Assembly (NCBI GenBank): GCA_964530135.1
Contig: CAZGXN010000008.1
Coordinates: 1-42,766 of the forward strand
Direction of reading: 5' to 3'
DNA from: an uncultured Bdellovibrionales bacterium
GTDB taxonomy: Bacteria > Patescibacteriota > Minisyncoccia > Moranbacterales > UBA1568
Length of the DNA: 42,766 nt
Shown here: positions 6,154 through 40,790 of the stretch, in pieces
Numbering within the stretch: the stretch's first letter is position 1
Layout: every line of letters begins with the position of its first letter
The notes under the pieces: model-generated
Seen by the model: the letters and a program-made list of their open reading frames with translations, nothing else
The model's database searches: none
Told to the model about the DNA's origin: nothing
Position numbers and translations under genes: made by a program

Positions 6154-6828
6154 TTAGAAAAGAGTATTCGTGTGCAACACTGTGTCTTCATAGCTCGCAT
6201 GCTCCGTCTTGGCTGATTCGAGGAGGGATTGATTGCCGTGCAACTCCGTGAGGTACTGCCAGTTACGAAATTCCGGATACCGCCGAAGCTGTTCCTCGAG
6301 GATTTCCACGGTTGCCCGGACATCTCCCGCACCGGTATGTGCCAGTGTATGGTCTTTGCCGCAATACAACCGGTAGGCCGCTGTCAAATTCCGCGGAGCG
6401 AACATATCGCGCTTCTCCATCTTGTGATACAAAATTTTTGCATCGAGGATTTTTTTGGTAAGATAATCAAAATTCTTCCCGACTGAAGCAAATTCTGACT
6501 TGAGAAAAGGCAGATCAAAACCGGTGATATTGAACCCCCCAACATCCGCCCCCTCAAAAGCGCTCCAGAGCGTATAGGACAACTTGGCAAAGCTCGGGGC
6601 AAGTGCGACATCTGCATCGGTAATACCATTGATCGCGCTCGCTTCAGGCGGTATCGGACGACCTGGATTGATCTGATAGACATATGCCGTAACACTCCCG
6701 TCCGGCATGATTTTCTCATAGGCCAGCTCGATAATCTTGTCCTCACCCGTAGCAAGTCCCGTCGTTTCCAAATCAAAAACAATTAGTGGACGATCCAGCG
6801 GCAGGAATTGAGGGAGAGAACTTTTCAT
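6154..6828 (-). CDS. DEDDh 3'-5' exonuclease (DnaQ/epsilon-like)
   Basis: VFDLETTG (Exo I), GFNITGFDLPFL (Exo II), HTGAGDV (Exo III). Start placed at MKSSLP (6828); the ORF extends to 6870. Confidence 0.88.
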   Translation of the reverse strand: MKSSLPQFLPLDRPLIVFDLETTGLATGEDKIIELAYEKIMPDGSVTAYVYQINPGRPIPPEASAINGITDADVALAPSFAKLSYTLWSAFEGADVGGFNITGFDLPFLKSEFASVGKNFDYLTKKILDAKILYHKMEKRDMFAPRNLTAAYRLYCGKDHTLAHTGAGDVRATVEILEEQLRRYPEFRNWQYLTELHGNQSLLESAKTEHASYEDTVLHTNTLF

Positions 6829-30976: not shown

Positions 30977-33955
30977 TCAATTTCTTTTCAGTGAAAAAGT
31001 AAATGAGCCGCCTTCGATATCGACCGTTTCCGAATATTCGGTATCGGTGAGTGCGCCTGGTTCAACCACTGTCGCGAGCACTTCGTTGGCGATGAGATTC
31101 TTCAGTTCTGTGTTCGCGAAAACCGCGTCCTTGCCGATAGAGCCGAGACTAATGCGATCCTCCACATTGAACCCGGCCTTCTTGCGGCCTTCTTGGATTG
31201 CACGAATGATTTCCCGCGCCTCCCCTTCGAGTTTCAGTTCGGGAGTGATTTCCCAATCAAAATCAACTTCTTCGCTATTACTTAACCCCACTTCCTTCAC
31301 ATTAAGCTCCTCATAAATAATCCAGCTCCATTCTGTTTTATTTATAGCCTCGTCAAAAAGACTGACATATTTTTGTGATAACAGAAGTTTTCTCAATGGT
31401 TGCCTCACTTTAACTCCTTTTTCAGCTCGCTTCTGGAGGCCGATTGTCACAACTTCACGAAGAAGTCTCATATTCTCCATTAACTTCTCATCAACAAACG
31501 ATTTATCCGCTACCGGGTAGTCAGCGAGATGGACGGATTCCTCACCCGTCAGATTGCGATAGATTGCCTCGGCGAGGAACGGCGTGAACGGCGCCATGAG
31601 TTTCGCGAGCGTGACGAGGACGGTGTAGAGCGTCTGATACGCCTGTTCCTTGTCGCTGTCGTCTTCACTCTTCCAGAAACGCTTCCGGCTGCGGCGGATG
31701 TACCAGTTGGAGAGGTTGTCGATGAAACTTTCGATTCGCTGGGTTGCAGAATAGACGTCGTATCTTTCCAACAAGGTATCAACTTCTCGTATCAGGACTT
31801 GCATTTCAGAAAGAATCCATTGATCGAGCAGATTGTTTGATGTTTGACACTTGGTGTTTGATGTTTGATTCGGCTCCCACCCATCGATCGACGCGTAGGT
31901 CGTGAAGAATGAATACGAATTCCAGAGCATACGGAATACACGGTTCTGTACATCGCGCATTCCCTTCAGATCGAATCGTTTCGGCAGCCCCGGCTGATTG
32001 ATGGCAAAGAAGAACCAGCGTAATTGATCCGCTCCGAACTGATCGAACATCTCGAACGGATCGATCACATTGCCTTTGGATTTGGACATCTTTTTCCCTT
32101 CACCATCGAGGACATGTCCGAGACAGATGACGTTCTTGAAGGCATTGCCCACCGGAACTTTCCCGGCCTGATTGAGCAGAGTTGCGATCGCGTGAAGCGT
32201 GTAGAACCAACCCCGCGTCTGATCAACGGCTTCGCAGATATAGTCCGCCGGAAAGTATTTCCCCGATTCGATATTCCGCTTGTCATCTTCGGTGACTGCA
32301 TTCGGATAATTGAACTGCGCCAAAGGCATCGCACCGGAATCGAACCAGACATCCATCACCTCGGGCGTTCGCCTCATGGTTCCACCGCACGCGCACGCAA
32401 AAGTCACATCATCGATGTAGGGCTTGTGCAAATCTTTCAGTCCTCCCAATTCATTGGCGGAGGAAAGAATTTTCCGGGCATCACATTGCTCACATTCCCA
32501 GATAGGGAGTGGCGTCCCCCAATACCGTTCGCGAGAAATCGCCCAGTCCTTCACACCGGAGAGCCACTCGCCGAAACGTCCTTCCTTGATATGTTCCGGT
32601 ATCCAGGAAACGTTTTTGTTATTCGCGACAAGAGCGTCCGAAAGCTCGCTCATCCGGATGAACCATGATGGCTTGGCAAAATAGATGAGTGGAGTATCAC
32701 AACGCCAACAGAACGGGTACTCATGCTCGTACTTCTCTTTTGAAAACAGGTGCCCAGCATGCGCGAGATGTTTGATCACCTCAACATCGGTCGCTTGCGG
32801 ATCTTCTTTTGGTTTGGCGAGTAAGGAGGCAAAGTCCGTCACCGCTTCATCAAATGTTCCATCCGGCTTCACGTGATGTACAATCGGAAGTTTTTCGGTC
32901 CGTGCCAACTCCATGTCGTCTTCTCCGAAAGCCGGTGCCTCGTGTGCGATGCCAGTGCCCACATCAGTCGTAACGAAATCCGCATGATAGATCTTCCATC
33001 CGTTCTCGCGATGCTTCAGCGACTCATCCTTGGCGTAGTAATCAAACAGCGGTTTGTAGGATTTTCCAACAAGCTCAGAACCATCAACCTTTCCAATTTG
33101 TTTGAATTCTTTTCCAGCAAAAACTTTCTGAATAAGATTATAAGCCACGATGTATAATGTTCCCTCGCTTTCAATCTTTGTATAAGCAATATTTTTATTC
33201 ACTGCCAAGGCCACATTGCCCGGCAATGTCCACGGTGTCGTGGTCCACGCGAGAACGAATGTCCCTGGTTCATCAACGAGCTCGAACTTCACTGTCACGG
33301 AGAGATCCTTGACTACCTTGTATCCCTGCGCCACCTCATGCGATGAGAGCGCGGTCCCACAGCGGTAGCAGTATGGCACGACTTTGTGTCCTTTATAGAC
33401 AAATGATTCTCCCGCCTCATTTTTCAGCTCAGCGATTTTTGCCAGCTGCCACCAGACTGACTCAATGTATTCATTCTCGTACGTTACGTATGGATGCTCC
33501 ATATCCACCCAGTACCCCATCCGAGTCGTCATCCTTTCCCAGAGATCGCGATATTCCCAGACCGATGCCTTGCACTGCCGATTGAACTCGATCACGCTCG
33601 CACGAGCGTCGCCCGACACTATGTTCTCGATATCCTGCTTGCTCCTGAGCCCCAGTGCCTTTTCAACTTGAAGCTCAACCGGGAGTCCATGGGTATCCCA
33701 GCCAGCTTTCCGCGCCACTCGATAGCCCTTCATCGTTTTGTAACGCGGGATGATGTCTTTGAAGGATCTAGCCAAAACGTGATGCAGCCCCGGTTTGCCA
33801 TTGGCGGTCGGCGGCCCCTCATAAAAGATGAATGACTTATCTTCGGGATTCTTCTTCACCGACTTTTCGAAAATCCCGTTCTCATTCCAGAACTTCAGTA
33901 TCTCCTCTTCGAGTTTCGGAAAATTCACTTTGGCGTCAACTTTTTTGAATGGCAT
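30977..33955 (-). CDS. ileS: Isoleucine--tRNA ligase, type 2
   Basis: YEGPPTANGKPGLHH, GWDTHGLPVE, WTTTPWTLPGN, GTGIAHEAPAFGEDD, CWRC, WAISRERYWGTPLP, EAVDQTRGWFY, KMSKSKGN; type-2 C-terminus (KVRQPL...EGEAREIIRAIQEGRKKAGF). Confidence 0.98.
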   Translation of the reverse strand: MPFKKVDAKVNFPKLEEEILKFWNENGIFEKSVKKNPEDKSFIFYEGPPTANGKPGLHHVLARSFKDIIPRYKTMKGYRVARKAGWDTHGLPVELQVEKALGLRSKQDIENIVSGDARASVIEFNRQCKASVWEYRDLWERMTTRMGYWVDMEHPYVTYENEYIESVWWQLAKIAELKNEAGESFVYKGHKVVPYCYRCGTALSSHEVAQGYKVVKDLSVTVKFELVDEPGTFVLAWTTTPWTLPGNVALAVNKNIAYTKIESEGTLYIVAYNLIQKVFAGKEFKQIGKVDGSELVGKSYKPLFDYYAKDESLKHRENGWKIYHADFVTTDVGTGIAHEAPAFGEDDMELARTEKLPIVHHVKPDGTFDEAVTDFASLLAKPKEDPQATDVEVIKHLAHAGHLFSKEKYEHEYPFCWRCDTPLIYFAKPSWFIRMSELSDALVANNKNVSWIPEHIKEGRFGEWLSGVKDWAISRERYWGTPLPIWECEQCDARKILSSANELGGLKDLHKPYIDDVTFACACGGTMRRTPEVMDVWFDSGAMPLAQFNYPNAVTEDDKRNIESGKYFPADYICEAVDQTRGWFYTLHAIATLLNQAGKVPVGNAFKNVICLGHVLDGEGKKMSKSKGNVIDPFEMFDQFGADQLRWFFFAINQPGLPKRFDLKGMRDVQNRVFRMLWNSYSFFTTYASIDGWEPNQTSNTKCQTSNNLLDQWILSEMQVLIREVDTLLERYDVYSATQRIESFIDNLSNWYIRRSRKRFWKSEDDSDKEQAYQTLYTVLVTLAKLMAPFTPFLAEAIYRNLTGEESVHLADYPVADKSFVDEKLMENMRLLREVVTIGLQKRAEKGVKVRQPLRKLLLSQKYVSLFDEAINKTEWSWIIYEELNVKEVGLSNSEEVDFDWEITPELKLEGEAREIIRAIQEGRKKAGFNVEDRISLGSIGKDAVFANTELKNLIANEVLATVVEPGALTDTEYSETVDIEGGSFTFSLKRN
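31834..31868 (-). repeat. 7-mer tandem repeat (5 units) translated in frame in ileS
   Basis: Coding strand TCAAACA TCAAACA CCAAGTG TCAAACA TCAAACA, encoding QTSNTKCQTSN. Confidence 0.85.
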
Positions 33956-33962
33956 ATAGGTT

Positions 33963-34200
33963 TAGAGAAAAAAGAAAATCCTTAACACGCTTTGTGCTAA
34001 GGACGATTCAGAAATCGTGGTACCACCTCGCTTCGTTCACTCCTCAGTGAACCTTCATTATGGGACTAACGGGCCCCGCCCACGACGCTTCGCGTGAGCG
34101 ATGCGGGCAGGCGACCGTTGGGTTCTACACACCGTTCCGAAGCCTCTCGGCGCAGGACGGTTTCTTCCCATGGCTCCAGGATGATAGTCCCTTCAATGCC
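33963..34200 (-). ncRNA. T-box riboswitch (Ile, AUC specifier) in the ileS leader; ultrashort Stem I plus transcriptional terminator
   Basis: Stem I GGCAUUGAAGGGACU-AUC-AUCCUGGAGCC; Stem II UGGG-AAGAA...GUAGAA-CCCA; F-box CCGUUA; Stem III GUUCACU/AGUGAAC; T-box GAGG-UGGUACC-ACGAUU/AAUCGU-CCUU; terminator UCCUUAGCAC/GUGUUAAGGA followed by a U-tract. Confidence 0.93.
34074..34112 (-). repeat. GC-rich palindromic element inserted in T-box Stem IIA/B
   Basis: GCCTGCCCGC-ATCGCTCACGCGAAGCGTC-GTGGGCGGGG; arms resemble 40349-40387. Confidence 0.55.
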
Positions 34201-34216
34201 AATCGATTGTGGCCCC

Positions 34217-34245
34217 AGACTATCACGAAAAAGTGGCCAGAGCAA
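34217..34245 (-). promoter_or_regulatory. Promoter of the T-box-ileS transcript
   Basis: TTGCTC-17 nt-TAGTCT with an extended -10 TG, just upstream of Stem I. Confidence 0.65.
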
Positions 34246-34253
34246 CTATCCGG

Positions 34254-34937
34254 CTAGAGCTCATCGGCGCGATGAGCCGACATATTGCGATGGATGATCT
34301 CGTCGTTTTTGATTGAGACAAAGAGTTCGTACTCGCTCTTCACATGACGGCCATAAAAATCGAGGAAGTCGATGAGGACCGGCTTCGTCTTGAGCTCCTC
34401 AGCATGCTTCTCGACAAAAATAGAATACTGCGAGAACGCGTGGTCCTCGAAAAGATAGTTCAACTGGAGTGAGCTTTTGGGGCTGAAGAGGTAGAGAATA
34501 AATGACGCGGCCGCATAACCAAATGAAAAGAAGAGCGGAATGAGCGTGTGGCGAATAAAGCCGTCCTCGCCGTATTTCTTGGCCAACTGGGAGAGCACGA
34601 CGACATGCATCGTCTCATTGTCCTGGGACGCACGGCCGAAGCGCGATGTCTTGGATAGTTCGATCGCTTTTTTTTCGTTCGAATAAAACATCGTCAGAAG
34701 CATATAGCTCGCCACCTCCCACGACTGGTACGGGATGCGCGCGATCACCTCAACCGCTTTGAATTTTCCATAGGACGGATCATGGCCATAGACGAGATTG
34801 CCGCAGGTTACGAGAAGTGTCCCGAGAATCTTCGGGATAACGCCGACCCGATAGCCGTCGTATGACTTCTTGTATTCCTCGAGCTGACCGGTATCCAGAA
34901 GCGTTGCTAGGAGTGCTTCATGTTGGGCTTTGTCCAT
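34254..34937 (-). CDS. Alternative oxidase / PTOX-like diiron carboxylate membrane protein
   Basis: VEVIARIPY, DNETMH, FEDHAFSQY and KNDEIIH match PTOX motifs LETIARVPY, NEMHH, VESHAYETY and RDDEAEH; one hydrophobic stretch. Confidence 0.8.
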   Translation of the reverse strand: MDKAQHEALLATLLDTGQLEEYKKSYDGYRVGVIPKILGTLLVTCGNLVYGHDPSYGKFKAVEVIARIPYQSWEVASYMLLTMFYSNEKKAIELSKTSRFGRASQDNETMHVVVLSQLAKKYGEDGFIRHTLIPLFFSFGYAAASFILYLFSPKSSLQLNYLFEDHAFSQYSIFVEKHAEELKTKPVLIDFLDFYGRHVKSEYELFVSIKNDEIIHRNMSAHRADEL

Positions 34938-35164
34938 AAAAAAGATTTGGTAACCAGAAATTACATTCTCAGTCTATCATCCTCCGAGTCTTGTTTCGAA
35001 GCTCAAGGAATCTGCTCACTTAAAATTAAGTCCGTTTCAAAAAACCTTGTGGTCTGCGCACATCCCACTATCTTTCATTCTTTCCCGTTTCACACAGATG
35101 ATCTCACAGAGAAGTTTGATGACTGGTCATGCTCTCGCTGGAGAAGAGGGTTGCCGGCCATACC

Positions 35165-35779
35165 TTATCGGGAGGCAGCAGGGCTGAAAGAGTGCTGGCC
35201 ATCCCGCATGACAACGAGACAAGAGCCCTTCTCTGGAAACCAGTGGCCATCGCTCTGCTCGGCACCGATCGGTTCGCCGAGAAGTTCGGCATACATCTCT
35301 TGGAGTGTATCCGCATGAGAAACAACGACGATGTTCTTGCCGCTGAATGCCGCGGTCGTCGAGAGAAGAAAGGAACGCACCCGATCGCGAATATCCATAT
35401 AGCCCTCAACGCCATACTCCGGTGCACCAATAGCGCGAGTCCCATGTACACGCATAAATTCCAGAAAATCCTGGTACTTCGTTTCCTCAAAACTCCCAAA
35501 CGAAGCTTCACACAAACGAGTATCAATCGTTAGCGGGATATCCAACACTGTGCGGATGATCTCGGCGGTTTGTCTGGCCCGCAGTACTGGCGATGCGACA
35601 ATAAAATCCGGTGATTGTTGTTTCAAAAATGCTGCCGTCTCATGAACCGACTGTCTCCCCCGTTCGGTCAGCGCATACTCTCGCTGACTCCCCATCGAAC
35701 TGAGAACACCAAGTACATTATTCTCGGCTTCTCCATGCCGGACCAGGGTATATGTATTGCCAGTGTACTTATCCACCAT
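35165..35779 (-). CDS. Histidine phosphatase family protein
   Basis: LVRHGEAENN, ASPVLRARQTA, DTRLCEASFG, VVVSHAD; start placed at MVDKY (the ORF track starts at 35902). Confidence 0.9.
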   Translation of the reverse strand: MVDKYTGNTYTLVRHGEAENNVLGVLSSMGSQREYALTERGRQSVHETAAFLKQQSPDFIVASPVLRARQTAEIIRTVLDIPLTIDTRLCEASFGSFEETKYQDFLEFMRVHGTRAIGAPEYGVEGYMDIRDRVRSFLLSTTAAFSGKNIVVVSHADTLQEMYAELLGEPIGAEQSDGHWFPEKGSCLVVMRDGQHSFSPAASR

Positions 35780-35915
35780 AAACCGCATCGATAGCAACGG
35801 CAGCGCGGTAGATATCCGAACCGAGCGCCAAGACAAAAGCCCCCACGACAATGACATACAGATGGGCAGCAAATATCCAGGCGCGAGTGTCTTCACGGAC
35901 AACTTTTTTTGACAT
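35769..35915 (-). CDS. Small single-TM protein (48 aa), unannotated
   Basis: MSKKVVREDTRAWIFAAHLYVIVVGAFVLALGSDIYRAAVAIDAVYGG; starts 10 nt after the argS stop; its stop overlaps the phosphatase start. Confidence 0.65.
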   Translation of the reverse strand: MSKKVVREDTRAWIFAAHLYVIVVGAFVLALGSDIYRAAVAIDAVYGG

Positions 35916-37627: not shown

Positions 37628-38686
37628 TCACACAGGTACAGGTGGCGGGAAATTGACGACGCTGGCTTCGCCCTCTCTAACCGTAACTGTCTGGGCACCA
37701 TAGGCGTCGTCTCGAGCGTACGCGCGGATCACATATGTCCCCGCGCGGACACCGGTTAGCCGATACACGCCCCGCGCATCCGTTGTCGTATTTGCGATTG
37801 GTGCCTGTGCAAGATTCTGGTACAAACTGACAGTCCACCCCGAGAGAACGCCACCAAATCCATCGCCCACCATTCCCTCGATCGTTCCGCCAGTCACCGG
37901 AATCGGCAAGAGCGCGAGAATGGCGTTGACGATTCGTGTCCGACTGTTCGTACCGGAGAGGTATGACTCCTTGAAGCCGTGGCATCGGTACTCGTCGCCA
38001 CACGGTTCGGTGTTGGCCGCGTTGGCTGGCAGGGCGAGCAGGAAGTACTTGCGTGCAAAGCCGTCTTCGGTGAGTGTGGTGTACGGGCCACCATCAGCTA
38101 CGCTATCAGCCGGTGTCGCCACTGCCACCAGGCGTGTTTTGCCACGCTCGGTAGCAGACAATGCCAACCATTCCTGATTCGCATAGAAACTGCCCTGCGA
38201 GTGCGGCACCAGGATCACCCGCCGGCCTTGTGCCAAATGTTCGCGGTACTTGACCAAATGCTCAGCGACTTGATCACCGAGGACATAGAGCGCCGCTTCG
38301 CGCGCCACTTTCCGATAGAGGTCATCTGCCAGGAGGTTGAATCCTGGTAGCTGACTCATCGCAAGCGCTCGCAAGTAGACCTTCCAGAAAAGCGAGGTAC
38401 TCCGATCGAGCTCCTCGCTCTTTTGCAGGCCGGCTTCGATGAAGTCGAGTTTCAAGAGCTCATCCGTGTTGTAGGCGTAGTCGAAGCTGAGACAGTCCTT
38501 GAGATTGTCGGGTGTTTTCGCAAGGACTTCTTTTGCTAATTTTTCTTTTGAATTAATAGCATTGAACTCCTCCGTATCCACCCCATTGATGAAGAAGATC
38601 GTGGTCTTTTCCGTGGGACAGACAGCCCAGGAATACGCTGGCAGCATAAGTGCCAGGACGAGCATCAGAACTTTCCAGTCACGCAT
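37628..38686 (-). CDS. Secreted alpha/beta-hydrolase (lipase/cutinase-like) with a C-terminal carboxypeptidase-regulatory-like beta domain
   Basis: AAGGAGAG before MRDWKVLMLVLALMLPAYSWA (signal peptide); TIFFINGV; nucleophile elbow VPHSQG; CHGF; C-terminal GTIEGMV...TTTDARGVYRLTGVRAGTYVIRA. Confidence 0.75.
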   Translation of the reverse strand: MRDWKVLMLVLALMLPAYSWAVCPTEKTTIFFINGVDTEEFNAINSKEKLAKEVLAKTPDNLKDCLSFDYAYNTDELLKLDFIEAGLQKSEELDRSTSLFWKVYLRALAMSQLPGFNLLADDLYRKVAREAALYVLGDQVAEHLVKYREHLAQGRRVILVPHSQGSFYANQEWLALSATERGKTRLVAVATPADSVADGGPYTTLTEDGFARKYFLLALPANAANTEPCGDEYRCHGFKESYLSGTNSRTRIVNAILALLPIPVTGGTIEGMVGDGFGGVLSGWTVSLYQNLAQAPIANTTTDARGVYRLTGVRAGTYVIRAYARDDAYGAQTVTVREGEASVVNFPPPVPV

Positions 38687-38708
38687 GTTTCTCTCCTTGG
38701 AAAAGTAA

Positions 38709-39602
38709 TTAGTTGGGCAGGGAGTCAGGATTGAAGGTACAGGCGACTTTCTGCCGGTTAAGTCGTTGACTAGCAGGACCGCTATCCGAGACATAACCAC
38801 CCATGTGAGCATTCGCCTTGCGATAAGCCCGGCTGCGCTCCTTGGTGTTGAGGAAACTGGCAATCAATTCCGCGCCTGCCTTGTCGCTCGCATCGAGGTC
38901 ATCATTAAAGACATGGTTGAGACAGTCGATAGCTGCTTCCATGACTTTTCCGCCATTACTCCTCGTCTTCGCCTTGTCCTGATGATCGCGCACAAAAGCA
39001 TGAAGCATTCGTGCATTTTGCATCAAGGCCTCGCGCTTCTTGGCCGATTCGGGATAACCAAAAACGATGAAGCGTTCGATATCGTCACGGACACCGTTGT
39101 TGTTGGTGTCGATCCCGAGCAGGTCTTGCTTGCCCGCTTCTCCTGGATCACCCGGCAAGGGAATGGTTGAGAAAGTGAGCTCCACCGGAAAATGTGGCAT
39201 GAATTCCTCTTTCGTGATTCCGTCGGACAGGCGCCGGAGCAGCACCAACTCGCCGCGTTTCACACTCAGTGGTGCGTCTGGTGGAGCAGTCACACGCACA
39301 GTGACACCCACCGTCTCACCAGCCTGGATTGCGTTCCGAAATCCCGGATCGTTCACGGTGATATAGGGGGTGATCTCGCCGCGCGCCTCGACGATGAGAT
39401 GTGGGGTTTCCGAAAGCGGCTTTGGGCCGACATTCCTGAGTGCAACCGTGTGCGAAGTAGTCGCACCTGGTGCGAGACTTTCCGGTGCGAGGCGTGCAGG
39501 CACCCACGCGATGTGTGGCGTAGCGGCCCACGTGACGACCGTTACGAGAGATAAAACGGCTCCCAAGAGGAGCAGTCTCCAACGGTGTTGCTTCGTGAAC
39601 AT
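38709..39602 (-). CDS. Secreted hypothetical protein with an Ig-like domain and a DxNxNG Ca-binding-like loop
   Basis: Signal peptide MFTKQHRWRLLLLGAVLSLVTVVTWA; beta-rich N-terminal half; LLGIDTNNNGVRDDIERFI followed by a helical domain; GGAG 8 nt before the ATG at 39602. Confidence 0.75.
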   Translation of the reverse strand: MFTKQHRWRLLLLGAVLSLVTVVTWAATPHIAWVPARLAPESLAPGATTSHTVALRNVGPKPLSETPHLIVEARGEITPYITVNDPGFRNAIQAGETVGVTVRVTAPPDAPLSVKRGELVLLRRLSDGITKEEFMPHFPVELTFSTIPLPGDPGEAGKQDLLGIDTNNNGVRDDIERFIVFGYPESAKKREALMQNARMLHAFVRDHQDKAKTRSNGGKVMEAAIDCLNHVFNDDLDASDKAGAELIASFLNTKERSRAYRKANAHMGGYVSDSGPASQRLNRQKVACTFNPDSLPN

Positions 39603-39819: not shown

Positions 39820-39886
39820 ATACTAGAGAATCAAAACAATGGCTTTATACGGCCAAATCTGGTATACAGAAGCCATAGTAAAGACT

Positions 39887-40342
39887 ATGAAATCCACCAA
39901 GGAAATCGCCTACAATCGCCGTGCCTCCTTTGATTACACCCTCCAAGACCGGTATGAGGCGGGTTTGGTCTTGACCGGCGGCGAGGTAAAAAGCGTCAAA
40001 ACTGGCCATGCCAGCCTGAAAGGTGCCTTTGTTACGGTCCACGGTACCGAACTCGTGCTCACCAATGCCCTCATTCCCCGCTATGCCCGAGCCAGCGTGA
40101 AAATCCATCACGAGGATCGGCGTCCACGCACTCTCCTCCTCCATCGATCAGAAATCCGTTCACTGATTGGAAAAGCTCGCACCGAAGGCTTGACTTTGAT
40201 CCCGATTCGTCTGTATATTAAGAGGCGACTCGTAAAGCTTGAATTTGCTGTTGGCAAGGGGAAAAAGCAGCATGACAAACGGGCCGATATCGGTAGACGT
40301 GAGAGTGATCGCCGCATCCGCCGCGAGATGAAAAATTACTAG
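39887..40342 (+). CDS. smpB: SsrA-binding protein
   Basis: NRRASFDY, EAGLVLTGGEVKSVK, RTLLLHRSEI, LIPIRLY, GKGKKQHDKR; start placed at MKSTK (the ORF track starts at 39839). Confidence 0.98.
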   Translation: MKSTKEIAYNRRASFDYTLQDRYEAGLVLTGGEVKSVKTGHASLKGAFVTVHGTELVLTNALIPRYARASVKIHHEDRRPRTLLLHRSEIRSLIGKARTEGLTLIPIRLYIKRRLVKLEFAVGKGKKQHDKRADIGRRESDRRIRREMKNY

Positions 40343-40348
40343 ACTATC

Positions 40349-40387
40349 GCCGCCCGAAACCCTTTGCAAAAAGCGTTGCGGGCGGGG
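40349..40387 (+). repeat. GC-rich palindromic element abutting the tmRNA 5' end
   Basis: GCCGCCCG-AAACCCTTTGCAAAA-AGCGTTGCGGGCGGGG; related to 34074-34112. Confidence 0.5.
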
Positions 40388-40790
40388 GTTGTCTAGACTC
40401 GACAGGGCGTACTTTTAAAATAGGCAAGCCGACCTTGGGCATATGGTCGTAAATACTATTCCCACGATGATAAATGCAAACTTCATCACCAAAGCAAAGA
40501 ACGCAATCGCGCAAGCATTTGCTCCGTCTTTCGCTCCTGCTCTCGCCTAAATTAGTGCGTTGAGCCATCGGACTCTTGATTCTCAATAGGGAAGCTCCGG
40601 TGCCATAACCATTGAGACGATGCGAGGACATTTCCTTTTCTTTCCACCTCAAATTGTATTGCCAAAGAAAAGCTGATTGAGGGATTTTGTGTGTTTTCTA
40701 CCCGCTGTCTGTATACAAAGCACACTACGCTTGTAGACTATTTTAGATAATCGTTACTGGACATGGGTGCAATTCCCATCAACTCCACCA
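40385..40790 (+). ncRNA. ssrA: tmRNA (ssrA)
   Basis: 5' GGGGTTG...GACTCGAC; 3' T-arm ATGGG-TGCAATT-CCCAT plus CAACTCC-A-CCA; G3:U wobble; tag ORF 40476-40550 ANFITKAKNAIAQAFAPSFAPALA*; directly after smpB. Confidence 0.96.

What the first reader, a model, noticed from the sequence alone, without database searches (positions are those of the whole stretch)
34254..34937. PTOX/alternative-oxidase-like diiron protein in a lineage thought to lack quinones and a respiratory chain
Seen: all six candidate iron ligands are present (E in VEVIA; E and H in NETMH; E in FEDHA; E and H in DEIIH), with PTOX-like context. Established: AOX/PTOX enzymes oxidise quinols with O2, and most Patescibacteria lack quinone biosynthesis and terminal oxidases. 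Inference: it may scavenge O2 or oxidise host-derived quinols, or be a repurposed ferritin-like enzyme. It sits directly upstream of the ileS T-box promoter, so the two may have been acquired together.
Basis: partly seen in the sequence, partly recalled or inferred. Interest (0 to 1): 0.65.

Follow-up and report, generated by a model that had tools for sequence, protein, structure and literature searches.

The report
Compact PTOX-like oxidase in a Moranbacterium
A tiny-genome candidate-phyla (CPR) bacterium with no respiratory chain or recognisable quinone synthesis carries a conserved, very divergent relative of the plant and parasite di-iron "alternative" oxidases. It probably lets the cell reduce oxygen, but the source of its electrons is unknown.

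Summary
Window 34254-34937 (minus strand) encodes a 227-aa protein with the E / ExxH / E / ExxH ligand set (E63, E108, H111, E164, E213, H216) and the catalytic tyrosine (Y171).

**Family.** It passes Pfam PF01786 (AOX) at 32 bits against a cut-off of 22.7. Its confident AlphaFold model (pLDDT 91.6) matches only trypanosome alternative oxidase in the PDB and cyanophage PTOX among viral models. It does not match Coq7, rubrerythrin or ferritin.

**Clade.** In a tree it falls in a well-supported third clade beside PTOX and AOX. That clade holds a Patescibacteria group and a sister group from other bacteria.

**Inheritance.**
- The gene is under strong purifying selection (dN/dS 0.05-0.14).
- It is present in 13 of 14 sampled genomes of its genus.
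- It sits in a conserved smpB-argS-phosphatase-AOX-[variable slot]-ileS backbone, so it was not co-acquired with the ileS T-box.

**Genome.** The 99%-complete genome has no cytochrome bd, heme-copper oxidase, NDH-2, VKOR or true UbiE/MenG. Its one UbiA-family gene is not a MenA/UbiA orthologue.

**Best reading.** It is a non-energy-conserving membrane O2 reductase that runs on a scavenged quinol or another lipophilic donor. Databases already call it "alternative oxidase", but I found no paper on this clade.

The parts
34254..34937 (-). Gene for a 227-aa compact AOX/PTOX-family di-iron protein. Ligands: E63, E108, H111, E164, E213, H216. Catalytic Tyr: Y171. Pocket residues: K58, H166, A167, Q170. 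Two hydrophobic helices, about 31-50 and 127-151, are the likely membrane-binding helices.
   Evidence: ORF. PF01786 at 32 bits against a cut-off of 22.7. Invariant columns. AlphaFold2 pLDDT 91.6, pTM 0.89. Foldseek finds TAO only in the PDB and cyanophage PTOX in BFVD. Residue mapping to TAO. Hydropathy. dN/dS 0.05-0.14.
34938..35164 (-). A 227-bp AT-richer spacer (43% GC) upstream of the oxidase gene, between it and the His_Phos_1 gene. It presumably holds the gene's own promoter; no sigma-70 consensus was found.
   Evidence: Composition. The promoter scan found 0 sites. The spacer is 62-94 bp in relatives.
34236..34254 (-). Weak terminator-like hairpin (6 pairs, 4 G-C, T-rich tail) overlapping the stop codon of the oxidase gene. 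It would separate the gene from the ileS leader.
   Evidence: Consensus scan only: 4 sites found in the region against 1.5 expected.
33996..34205 (-). Neighbour, not part of the oxidase unit: the T-box leader of ileS (ileS is at 30977-33955, minus strand).
   Evidence: RF00230 at 37.8 bits (gathering score 93), E 1.7e-6, with the GGUGGUACC box and a terminator at 34004-33978. An earlier follow-up, e1-5229332, reached the same reading.
35165..35902 (-). Syntenic upstream neighbour: a histidine-phosphatase (His_Phos_1) gene. It sits next to the oxidase gene in close relatives, with no evident functional link.
   Evidence: PF00300 at E 1.8e-33. Same adjacency in L011, L012 and L020; in L020 it is fused to NADAR.

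Best explanation
The gene encodes a functional di-iron carboxylate oxidase of the AOX/PTOX superfamily that binds one face of the membrane.

**Shown**
- Family membership.
- A complete di-iron site and the catalytic tyrosine.
- An AOX-type fold with two hydrophobic helices.
- Strong purifying selection.
- Vertical inheritance within the genus.
- No other terminal oxidase, NDH-2, VKOR or UbiE/MenG in the genome.

**Inferred**
- Like AOX and PTOX, the enzyme takes two electrons at a time from a lipophilic quinol-type donor bound next to the di-iron centre. In the alignment K58, H166, A167, Q170 and Y171 fall at the columns of the TAO residues that I recall as lining its quinol/inhibitor pocket.
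- It reduces O2 to water without pumping protons.
- The cell has no recognisable quinone pathway. The quinone is therefore most likely scavenged from a host or the environment together with membrane lipids. The enzyme would then serve as an oxygen scavenger or redox vent, not as part of an energy-conserving chain.
- What re-reduces the carrier is unknown.
For: **Family and fold**
- PF01786 is the only Pfam family matched by this protein and by all 30 aligned relatives.
- The six ligands and Y171 are invariant and co-linear with TAO and cyanophage PTOX.
- The AlphaFold2 model is confident: pLDDT 91.6, pTM 0.89.
- Foldseek against the PDB gives 14 TAO chains at probability 0.99-1.00. Everything else is at or below 0.12.
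- Foldseek against BFVD gives named cyanophage PTOX models at ranks 2 and 4 (probability 1.00 and 0.96); the two other hits at probability 1.00 carry no name. Everything below rank 4 is at or below 0.12.

**Pocket and membrane binding**
- The TAO pocket positions are conserved in kind: R118->K58, A216->A167, T219->Q170, Y220->Y171, N161->N107, D265->D212.
- Two hydrophobic helices, 31-50 and 127-151, have 19-residue Kyte-Doolittle means of 1.7-1.8.

**Selection and inheritance**
- dN/dS is 0.05-0.14.
- The gene is present in 13 of 14 genomes of the genus and in 28 of 301 of the order.
- Synteny is conserved.

**Context in a relative**
- A sister-clade member in a quinone-using Paludibacteraceae genome lies next to the nqrA-F NADH:quinone reductase operon.

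**This genome**
- It lacks cytochrome bd, heme-copper oxidase and NDH-2. This protein is therefore the only candidate O2 reductase found.

**Precedent**
- CPR genomes encode cytochrome bo3 quinol oxidases and lack quinone biosynthesis genes (PMC8407418).
Against: - No member of this clade or its sister clade has been assayed.
- The genome shows no quinone-reducing dehydrogenase. It has no NDH-2. Its only FAD_binding_4 protein is MurB-sized. Its only other flavoproteins are a TrxB-like protein and a glycan-cluster PRK07233 protein.
- It has no true UbiE/MenG. A turnover cycle therefore cannot be drawn.
- The similarity to characterised enzymes is weak:
  - 32 bits to PF01786.
  - phmmer and a 30-sequence profile find no TAO chain in the PDB.
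  - Foldseek E-values are 6e-3 to 8e-2 with TM about 0.5.
- Two pocket residues differ from all AOX and PTOX sequences examined: K for R118 and Q for T219. This could mean a different substrate.
- Gene neighbourhoods vary and name no partner.
Confidence: 0.55

Rival explanations
1. It is a di-iron oxygenase (hydroxylase or desaturase) or an oxidase acting on a non-quinone lipophilic substrate, such as a scavenged lipid, an isoprenoid or a cell-envelope precursor. It would be an AOX-fold enzyme repurposed in the way Coq7 and AcsF use the same ligand set for oxygenation.
For: - No quinone synthesis or quinone reductase is recognisable in the genome.
- Two pocket residues are clade-specific: K58 and Q170, instead of the R and T/S found in AOX/PTOX.
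- The branch leading to the clade is very long, 1.48 substitutions per site.
- That membrane di-iron carboxylate proteins include hydroxylases and cyclases is from my own knowledge (Berthold and Stenmark's classification); I did not read it here.
Against: - The catalytic Tyr, the ExH motif and the ARxPY motif are shared with PTOX.
- The only fold and profile matches are to quinol oxidases.
- No reductase partner that an oxygenase would need is conserved nearby.
- A sister-clade gene sits beside nqr in a quinone-using bacterium.
Confidence: 0.22
2. It is a real quinol oxidase and the cell does make its own quinone, by an unrecognised route. The route would use the 550-aa UbiA-family fusion protein and the trans-prenyl diphosphate synthase. 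Part of the Moranbacteria would then have a minimal endogenous quinone pool.
For: - The genome encodes a UbiA-family prenyltransferase domain with both Asp-rich motifs (PF01040, 102-105 bits).
- It encodes a PF00348 prenyl diphosphate synthase (183 bits).
- Relatives in the same family carry VKOR, a quinone-dependent enzyme.
Against: - The UbiA-family protein scores only 23-25 bits on the two MenA models that matched (cut-offs 264 and 277) and matches no UbiA-specific model. Its best hits, ChlG- and DGGGP-synthase-like, are also far below their cut-offs.
- It is present in the oxidase-negative relative G298 and absent from the oxidase-positive G178.
- The prenyl synthase lies directly upstream of a gene whose N-terminus looks like the undecaprenyl-PP synthase UppS (motif read by eye, not scanned), so it probably makes the undecaprenyl primer.
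- There are only generic SAM-methyltransferase partial hits to UbiE.
Confidence: 0.1
3. It is an oxidative-stress enzyme that uses the di-iron site as a peroxidase or for other reactive-oxygen detoxification, as rubrerythrin does. Electrons would come from a soluble donor such as a thioredoxin system or ferredoxin, and not from a membrane quinol.
For: - The genome has TrxB-like reductases and a 2-oxoacid:ferredoxin oxidoreductase-like gene (motifs seen).
- Neighbourhoods of relatives contain redox or oxygen-related accessories: a NirK-like copper oxidase, cupredoxins and TspO. Earlier notes also report a hemerythrin.
Against: - There is no sequence or fold similarity to rubrerythrin or ferritin.
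- There is no rubredoxin-like domain.
- Two strongly hydrophobic helices point to a membrane-facing substrate entry, as in AOX.
Confidence: 0.08
4. The gene is foreign: a binning contaminant, or a recent horizontal import that arrived with the ileS T-box unit.
For: - The family is patchy at phylum scale: 8 of 401 genomes.
- GC3 is slightly raised: 0.667 against 0.55-0.62 for the neighbours.
Against: - The gene is flanked by housekeeping genes on a 42.8-kb contig.
- The same argS-His_Phos-AOX-ileS order occurs in relatives at 85-86% identity, with other genes inserted between AOX and ileS.
- It is present in 13 of 14 genomes of the genus.
- Overall GC is 0.509 against 0.493 for the genome.
- dS is saturated between orthologues while dN stays low.
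Confidence: 0.03

Closest known systems
Plastoquinol (plastid) terminal oxidase, PTOX/IMMUTANS, including the cyanobacterial and cyanophage forms
   Same: - It belongs to the same Pfam family, PF01786.
- It has the same six ligands and catalytic Tyr.
- It shares the PTOX-type signatures that AOX lacks: A-R-x-P-Y after the first ligand (R67, Y70), and E-x-H-A at the third ligand (H166 where AOX has Glu).
- Cyanophage PTOX models are the only named matches in BFVD, at ranks 2 and 4.
- It is compact, like phage PTOX (167-168 aa), and has no long N-terminal arm.
   Different: - It does not nest inside the PTOX clade. It lies in a separate clade (SH-aLRT 99, branch 1.48), while PTOX is its own group (SH-aLRT 85).
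- It has K58 where every PTOX sequence has Arg, and Q170 where PTOX has Thr or Ser.
- tblastn of this protein finds no cyanophage PTOX, whereas a PTOX-like protein from another CPR family finds 102.
- The organism has no photosynthesis, no plastoquinone and no PDS-type partner. The one amine-oxidase-fold flavoprotein does not co-occur with it.
Mitochondrial and proteobacterial alternative oxidase (AOX), e.g. Trypanosoma brucei TAO (PDB 3VV9)
   Same: - TAO is the only solved structure with a similar fold: probability 0.99-1.00, TM about 0.5 over about 230 columns.
- The ligand set, Y220 and the N161/D265 second-shell residues are identical.
- The two hydrophobic membrane-binding helices are arranged the same way.
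   Different: - phmmer and a 30-sequence profile do not detect TAO.
- It lacks the AOX motifs LET-A-VPGMVGG and LEEEA.
- It is on the opposite side of the tree from AOX.
- A canonical AOX does exist in another Patescibacteria genome (G211, 227 bits to PF01786) and is clearly a different protein.
Cytochrome bo3 quinol oxidase operons of Saccharibacteria, Doudnabacteria and some Parcubacteria
   Same: They present the same puzzle: a quinol-dependent O2 reductase in CPR genomes that lack quinone biosynthesis genes. The literature reads them as some aerobic respiratory capacity (PMC8407418) or as an oxygen-scavenging system (PMC9530719).
   Different: - The enzyme family is unrelated: heme-copper, multi-subunit and proton-pumping.
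- None is present in this genome.
Sister group of the CPR clade: uncharacterised 219-250-aa 'alternative oxidase' or hypothetical proteins of Paludibacteraceae, Thermoleophilia and unbinned metagenome contigs
   Same: - They share K at the R118 position, the ExH motif, all ligands and a similar length.
- They are 30-38% identical to the window protein.
- Together with the CPR group they form the clade with SH-aLRT 99.
   Different: - They occur in bacteria that have respiratory chains. One lies beside nqrA-F.
- They have E, not Q, at the T219 position.
- None has been characterised either.

Membership tests
AOX/PTOX superfamily (Pfam PF01786, membrane-bound di-iron carboxylate quinol oxidases) | The sequence scores above the curated family threshold. 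| tested here: met
   32 bits against a gathering cut-off of 22.7, E 1.3e-7, covering profile positions 58-213 of 216. All 30 aligned relatives also match, with a best E of 7e-14.
AOX/PTOX superfamily (Pfam PF01786, membrane-bound di-iron carboxylate quinol oxidases) | Six iron ligands in the order E, ExxH, E, ExxH on four helices. | tested here: met
   E63, E108/H111, E164 and E213/H216 are invariant in 30 sequences. They fall in the columns of TAO E123, E162/H165, E213 and E266/H269. Each lies in a predicted helix.
AOX/PTOX superfamily (Pfam PF01786, membrane-bound di-iron carboxylate quinol oxidases) | A conserved catalytic tyrosine seven residues after the third ligand (TAO Y220). | tested here: met
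   Y171 is invariant in the CPR clade, the sister clade, PTOX and AOX.
AOX/PTOX superfamily (Pfam PF01786, membrane-bound di-iron carboxylate quinol oxidases) | AOX-type fold: a four-helix bundle plus two hydrophobic, membrane-facing helices. | tested here: met
   The AlphaFold2 model has pLDDT 91.6. Foldseek probability is 0.99-1.00 for TAO chains and no more than 0.12 for any other PDB entry. Helices 33-50 and 127-151 are hydrophobic. The TM-score is only about 0.5, so the fit is partial.
AOX/PTOX superfamily (Pfam PF01786, membrane-bound di-iron carboxylate quinol oxidases) | Quinol:O2 oxidoreductase activity (cyanide-insensitive, gallate- or SHAM-sensitive). | not testable with these tools
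   This needs expression and an oxygen-electrode assay.
AOX/PTOX superfamily (Pfam PF01786, membrane-bound di-iron carboxylate quinol oxidases) | The host organism has a quinone pool and at least one quinone reductase. | tested here: not met
   The genome has no NDH-2, no true UbiE/MenG and no VKOR. Its only FAD_binding_4 protein is MurB-sized. Its UbiA-family protein scores far below the MenA cut-offs and matches no UbiA-specific model. DsbB and the Men/Mqn/Ubi ring enzymes were not searched, so absence is not complete proof.
PTOX proper (plastoquinol terminal oxidase) | PTOX-type sequence signatures: ARxPY after ligand 1 and ExHA at ligand 4. | tested here: met
   A66-R67-I-P69-Y70 and E164-D-H166-A167 are present. 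PTOX has R, Y and H in these columns in 20-21 of 21 sequences; AOX has G/S, G and E.
PTOX proper (plastoquinol terminal oxidase) | It branches inside the PTOX clade. | tested here: not met
   In a quick IQ-TREE of 78 sequences, PTOX (phage, algal and another CPR family) forms one group with SH-aLRT 85. The window protein lies in a different group with SH-aLRT 99 on a branch of 1.48. The root is arbitrary, so a sister relationship to PTOX is not excluded.
PTOX proper (plastoquinol terminal oxidase) | A plastoquinone-based photosynthetic or carotenoid-desaturation setting. | tested here: not met
   This is a non-photosynthetic 0.89-Mb genome. The only amine-oxidase-fold flavoprotein (PRK07233-type) lies in a glycan cluster and does not co-occur with the oxidase.
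AOX proper (mitochondrial/proteobacterial) | AOX motifs (LET-A-VPGMVGG, NERMHL, LEEEA, RADE--H) and detectable sequence similarity to TAO. | tested here: not met
   phmmer and profile searches of the PDB do not find TAO. The protein has VEVIARIPY and FEDHA in place of the first and third motifs. It lies on the other side of the tree from AOX.
   There is no PF03232, rubrerythrin or ferritin match at E <= 10 for the protein, or at E <= 0.01 for 30 relatives. None appears among the Foldseek PDB hits. One 64%-identical homologue carries a precomputed weak PF03232 tag beside PF01786 (P0080).

The most novel reading that the evidence does not exclude
A third major branch of the AOX/PTOX superfamily exists beside AOX and PTOX. 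It would be compact, with K in place of the pocket Arg. Its Patescibacteria sub-branch would give many Parcubacteria-type 'obligate fermenters' a vertically inherited O2 reductase. That enzyme would work without any self-made quinone or any known quinone reductase. It would run either on quinones taken from the host with membrane lipids, or on a new kind of lipophilic donor. In this family the oxidase and the quinone-dependent VKOR are almost mutually exclusive (one shared genome). This hints at two alternative uses of a scavenged quinone pool.
Probability: 0.3. Interest if true: 0.7.

Novelty: new variant of a known kind. Interest (0 to 1): 0.5.

Why it matters
**Significance.** CPR/Patescibacteria make up a large share of bacterial diversity. 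They are described as fermenters without electron transport chains, and how they cope with oxygen is an open question (PMC8672522 and PMC12577380). A conserved, single-gene di-iron O2 reductase would be a simple answer for part of the radiation. It would also raise a sharp question about where the electrons and the quinone come from. That question bears on how these cells exploit their hosts' membranes.

**Testability.** It can be tested directly. The protein is small, needs no partner subunits, and its relatives AOX and PTOX are routinely assayed in E. coli membranes.

**Enzymology.** The clade offers a natural variant of the AOX pocket (Lys for Arg, Gln for Thr) that could show how substrate specificity is set.

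**Limits.** Databases already label these proteins "alternative oxidase". The same family was reached by earlier follow-ups of this scan in other genomes, so this window adds one more well-documented member, not a discovery.

Tried and rejected
**Leads tested and rejected**
1. **A PTOX-plus-desaturase pair, as in plastids.** The genome's only amine-oxidase-fold flavoprotein (PRK07233/HpnE-like, C6:37930-39261) occurs in 21 of 301 genomes of the order. Many of those lack the oxidase, and it is missing from many oxidase-positive genomes. It sits in a glycosyltransferase cluster.
2. **A DsbA-VKOR-quinone-oxidase disulfide relay.** VKOR is absent from this genome. In the family it occurs almost only in oxidase-negative genomes: 15 genomes over the cut-off, and only G498 has both.
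3. **An oxidase plus FAD-linked D-lactate dehydrogenase module** (a lead from earlier notes). The only FAD_binding_4 protein here is MurB-sized, in a 317-aa frame.
4. **The UbiA-family gene as MenA/UbiA.** Its best NCBIfam hits are ChlG- and DGGGP-synthase-like. All are far below their cut-offs. The two MenA models score 23-25 bits against cut-offs of 264 and 277. Its distribution is uncoupled from the oxidase.
5. **The PF00348 synthase as a quinone side-chain synthase.** It lies directly upstream of a gene whose N-terminal motif looks like UppS; I did not scan that gene.
6. **UbiE/MenG.** There are only partial hits of 24-35 bits to the SAM-binding core.
7. **Co-acquisition with ileS or foreign origin.** Rejected by synteny, distribution and GC.

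**Searches that found nothing or could not run**
8. Sequence searches of the PDB with the protein and with a 30-sequence profile found no AOX. Only the fold search did.
9. tblastn of the protein against phage genomes found nothing. A PTOX-like protein from another CPR family was needed to fetch cyanophage PTOX references.
10. NCBIfam has no model for it.
12. Literature searches found no paper on this clade. One paper mentions a single canonical AOX in a CPR genome as a transfer from Proteobacteria (PMC9540462).
Full report
**1. Observation**

The ORF listing shows a single long ORF at 34254..34937 on the minus strand, with an ATG start and 227 aa.
- VEVIA (E63)
- NETMH (E108, H111)
- FEDHA (E164)
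- DEIIH (E213, H216)

The start is supported by homologues that begin with the same MDK-(Q)HE sequence.

**2. Family**

Sequence profiles:
- Pfam matches only PF01786 (AOX), at E 1.3e-7 and 32 bits against a gathering score of 22.7. The match covers profile positions 58-213 of 216.
- NCBIfam has nothing.
- All 30 members of a diverse alignment of homologues (A1) match PF01786. None matches Coq7, rubrerythrin or ferritin at E <= 0.01.
- The similarity to characterised enzymes is weak. phmmer and a profile of A1 find no alternative oxidase chain in the PDB.

Structure:
- The AlphaFold2 model built on A1 is confident, with pLDDT 91.6 and pTM 0.89. It is all-helical.
- Foldseek against the PDB returns 14 chains of Trypanosoma brucei alternative oxidase (TAO). 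Their probability is 0.99-1.00, TM about 0.5, E 6e-3 to 8e-2. No other entry exceeds probability 0.12.
- Against viral models, the named matches are cyanophage plastoquinol terminal oxidases at ranks 2 and 4. Two further hits at probability 1.00 carry no name. Nothing below rank 4 exceeds 0.12.

**3. Active site**

I aligned the protein with three references:
- the TAO core, taken;
- a canonical bacterial AOX from another Patescibacteria genome (G211);
- two annotated cyanophage PTOX proteins.

The six ligands fall in the columns of TAO E123, E162, H165, E213, E266 and H269. Y171 falls on the catalytic Y220. All are invariant in the family.

Other positions. That the first four TAO residues line its quinol/inhibitor pocket is from my own knowledge of the TAO structure papers; I did not read them here.

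| TAO residue | Window protein | Note |
|---|---|---|
| R118 | K58 | K in all 18 CPR-clade and all 20 sister-clade sequences; R in all 21 PTOX sequences and in AOX |
| A216 | A167 | conserved |
| T219 | Q170 | T/S in PTOX and AOX; E in the sister clade |
| E215 | H166 | H as in PTOX; E in AOX |
| N161, D265 | N107, D212 | second-shell residues, conserved |

After the first ligand the protein reads A-R-I-P-Y, as in PTOX. AOX has A-G-V-P-G there.

Helices 33-50 and 127-151 are strongly hydrophobic, with 19-residue Kyte-Doolittle means up to 1.8. They are candidates for the two membrane-binding helices of AOX; that equivalence rests on my knowledge of the TAO structure, and I did not superpose the helices.

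**4. Phylogeny and distribution**

Homologue searches:
- The word-indexed search finds 964 homologous clusters. The best 120 are all 219-259 aa long, apart from one 198-aa fragment.
- Several are named by NCBI as "alternative oxidase" of Moranbacteria, Minisyncoccota or Patescibacteria, or by JGI as "ubiquinol oxidase".
- The exhaustive search of 1.84 billion representatives finds only 256 clusters at E <= 1e-3 and 12 at E <= 1e-30.

Tree: a quick IQ-TREE (LG+C20) of 78 ligand-complete sequences resolves three groups.
- AOX: TAO plus the G211 AOX.
- PTOX, SH-aLRT 85: cyanophage, algal-length sequences, and the PTOX-like proteins of another CPR family.
- A third clade, SH-aLRT 99, on a stem of 1.48 substitutions per site. 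It consists of the CPR group containing the window protein (SH-aLRT 92) and a sister group of 22 representatives.

Named members of the sister group come from Paludibacteraceae and Thermoleophilia. The root is arbitrary. I therefore call the protein PTOX-like but not a PTOX.

Genome scans:
- PF01786 is found in 8 of 401 Patescibacteria genomes.
- The window protein's orthologues are found in 28 of 301 genomes of the order. All 28 are in the window's own family, and they include 13 of the 14 genomes of its genus.

**5. Inheritance, and the ileS claim**

In relatives at 85-86% identity the gene order is smpB, argS, His_Phos_1, AOX, [variable slot], ileS. The slot varies:
- a NirK-like copper oxidase gene in L011;
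- two NUDIX genes in L020;
- nothing in the window.

More distant orthologues sit in unrelated neighbourhoods:
- a copper ATPase with cupredoxins;
- a TspO operon;
- a GSDH gene and a sigma factor gene;
- two others.

Further evidence on origin:
- GC is 0.509 against 0.493 for the genome.
- dN/dS against four orthologues is 0.05-0.14, with dS saturated.
- The gene has its own 227-bp upstream spacer and a weak terminator-like hairpin at its stop codon.
- The T-box leader of ileS follows at 33996-34205. An earlier follow-up had already analysed it.

The gene is thus a vertically inherited, selected, stand-alone unit. The idea that it arrived together with the ileS T-box is not supported.

**6. 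The rest of the genome**

The assembly is 888 kb in 21 contigs and 99.4% complete. Whole-genome six-frame profile searches gave these results:

| Search | Result in this genome |
|---|---|
| Cytochrome bd | none |
| Heme-copper oxidase | none |
| VKOR | none |
| PF07992 (NDH-2 type) | a TrxB-like protein, a TrxB-like fragment at a contig end, and the N-terminal FAD motif of a PRK07233/HpnE-like flavoprotein; so no NDH-2 |
| FAD_binding_4 | one protein, MurB-sized |
| UbiE/MenG | only generic methyltransferase-core hits of 24-35 bits |
| PF00348 (prenyl diphosphate synthase) | one gene, directly upstream of a gene whose N-terminal motif looks like UppS (not scanned) |
| PF01040 (UbiA family) | one 550-aa fusion of a 300-aa membrane domain to a UbiA domain |

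The UbiA-family fusion has best NCBIfam hits to ChlG- and DGGGP-synthase-like models, all far below their cut-offs. The two MenA models score 23-25 bits against cut-offs of 264 and 277. It is present in an oxidase-negative relative and absent from an oxidase-positive one.

A motif screen of 665 ORFs for dinucleotide-binding folds found no further candidate dehydrogenase.

Within the limits of these searches, the oxidase is the only candidate O2 reductase. No quinone synthesis or quinone reduction can be assigned. DsbB and the Men/Mqn/Ubi ring enzymes were not covered.

**7. Partner hypotheses tested**

- **PRK07233 flavoprotein.** It does not co-occur with the oxidase. It is in 21 of 301 genomes, including many oxidase-negative families, and in 7 of the 14 genomes of the genus.
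- **VKOR.** This quinone-dependent enzyme is present above its cut-off in 19 of 301 genomes of the order, 15 of them in the window's family. Only one of those (G498) also has the oxidase.
  - This does not support a VKOR-quinone-oxidase relay.
  - It does show that some close relatives carry an enzyme that needs a membrane quinone although the lineage is thought not to make one.
- **Sister clade context.** The Paludibacteraceae gene lies next to, and convergent with, the nqrA-F NADH:quinone reductase operon. This is weak contextual support for a quinol-linked role of the wider clade.

**8. Mechanism**

Best reading, with confidence about 0.55 for the whole statement and about 0.9 for superfamily membership with an intact di-iron site:
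- The protein is an interfacial membrane di-iron oxidase.
- It oxidises a quinol-type donor and reduces O2 to water without conserving energy.
- It uses a carrier that the cell scavenges.
- It serves oxygen scavenging or redox venting.

Rivals are given with their odds in the rival list:
- a non-quinone oxygenase or oxidase;
- an endogenous unrecognised quinone route;
- a rubrerythrin-like detoxifier;
- foreign DNA.

**9. Literature**

- CPR genomes with cytochrome bo3 quinol oxidases but no quinone synthesis are described, and read as possible aerobic respiratory capacity or oxygen scavenging (PMC8407418; PMC9530719).
- Surveys of oxygen adaptation in CPR list other O2-using enzymes but not this family (PMC12577380; PMC8672522).
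- One AOX phylogeny notes a single canonical AOX in a CPR genome as a transfer from Proteobacteria (PMC9540462).
- No paper found in seven searches mentions an AOX/PTOX-like clade in Patescibacteria.
- The library excludes most subscription journals, so this is absence of evidence only.

**10. Earlier notes of this scan**

Earlier notes reached the same family call for orthologues in other genomes. I used them as leads and re-derived the family assignment independently. I tested their partner ideas in this genome:
- The D-lactate dehydrogenase partner is absent here.
- NirK sits in the slot in L011.
- The phosphatase::NADAR neighbour is in L020.

**11. Verdict**

This is a real feature and the family call is correct. 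It is a distinct and apparently undescribed branch of a known enzyme family, in an organism where its substrate supply is unexplained. Interest is moderate (0.5): the enzyme is testable and ecologically relevant, databases already annotate it, and this scan has met it repeatedly.

Noticed in passing
Genomes of the window's order (handles), e.g. G498:C10:95020-95415, G558:C7:3551-3943 (L022): VKOR (vitamin K epoxide reductase family, PF07884) is quinone-dependent. It occurs above its cut-off in 19 of 301 genomes of the order, 15 of them in the window's family. Only one of those (G498) also carries the AOX-like gene. The two quinone-linked genes look nearly mutually exclusive, in a lineage thought to lack quinones.
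   Followed up: partly
Own genome, contig C3:90605-92257 (-): A 550-aa polytopic membrane protein fuses an unknown 300-aa N-terminal domain to a UbiA-family prenyltransferase domain with both Asp-rich motifs. Its best NCBIfam hits (ChlG, DGGGP synthase, homogentisate phytyltransferase) are all far below their cut-offs. It is conserved in the family (G298, G376, G389). Its substrate is unknown.
   Followed up: partly
L011:6741-7784, and L020:6003-6941, between the AOX-like gene and ileS: The spacer between the oxidase gene and ileS is a variable slot in close relatives. It holds a 347-aa NirK-like two-domain copper oxidase in one, two NUDIX hydrolase genes in another, and nothing in the window.
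   Followed up: partly
L015:6001-7182 and L016:4059-5240: In a Kaiserbacteria-like relative (58% identity) the oxidase gene abuts a TspO/MBR gene: stop at 6690, next start at 6691. TspO is a tetrapyrrole-binding membrane protein. The pair looks like a two-gene operon and may be an oxygen- or porphyrin-related pairing.
   Followed up: no
L013:1-5990: In a Moranbacteria relative (66% identity) the oxidase gene follows a copper cluster: a copper P-type ATPase, an HMA-DsbD_2 protein, two cupredoxin/COX2-like proteins, DUF305 and two unknown proteins.
   Followed up: no
G211 (another Patescibacteria family): C1:85352-85936 (L002); C6:3522-4433 and C6:6350-6760: This genome carries a canonical bacterial AOX: 227 bits to PF01786, E 4.7e-40 to TAO. 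On another contig, a 376-aa Pyr_redox_2 protein (possibly NDH-2 or SQR) lies 2 kb from a 524-aa FAD_binding_4 dehydrogenase. This may be a minimal imported chain.
   Followed up: no
L026:5001-10660 (Paludibacteraceae contig): A sister-clade AOX-like gene lies convergent with the nqrA-F Na+-NADH:quinone reductase operon. It is downstream of a Fur regulator gene and a small rubredoxin-like ORF.
   Followed up: no
window 39839-40342 (+) and 40385-40790 (+): smpB is followed directly by the tmRNA gene (RF00023, 104.8 bits). The tmRNA carries a long insertion after the resume and tag region relative to the model.
   Followed up: no
window 37628-38863 (-): A 411-aa protein with an N-terminal hydrophobic segment and a C-terminal carboxypeptidase-regulatory-like domain lies two genes upstream, beyond argS.
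   Followed up: no
Own genome, contig C6:37930-43641 (+): A PRK07233/HpnE-like amine-oxidase-fold flavoprotein (428 bits to NF005560) heads a run that continues with a 951-aa glycosyltransferase-like protein and a 508-aa membrane protein. Its distribution is patchy: 21 of 301 genomes of the order.
   Followed up: partly
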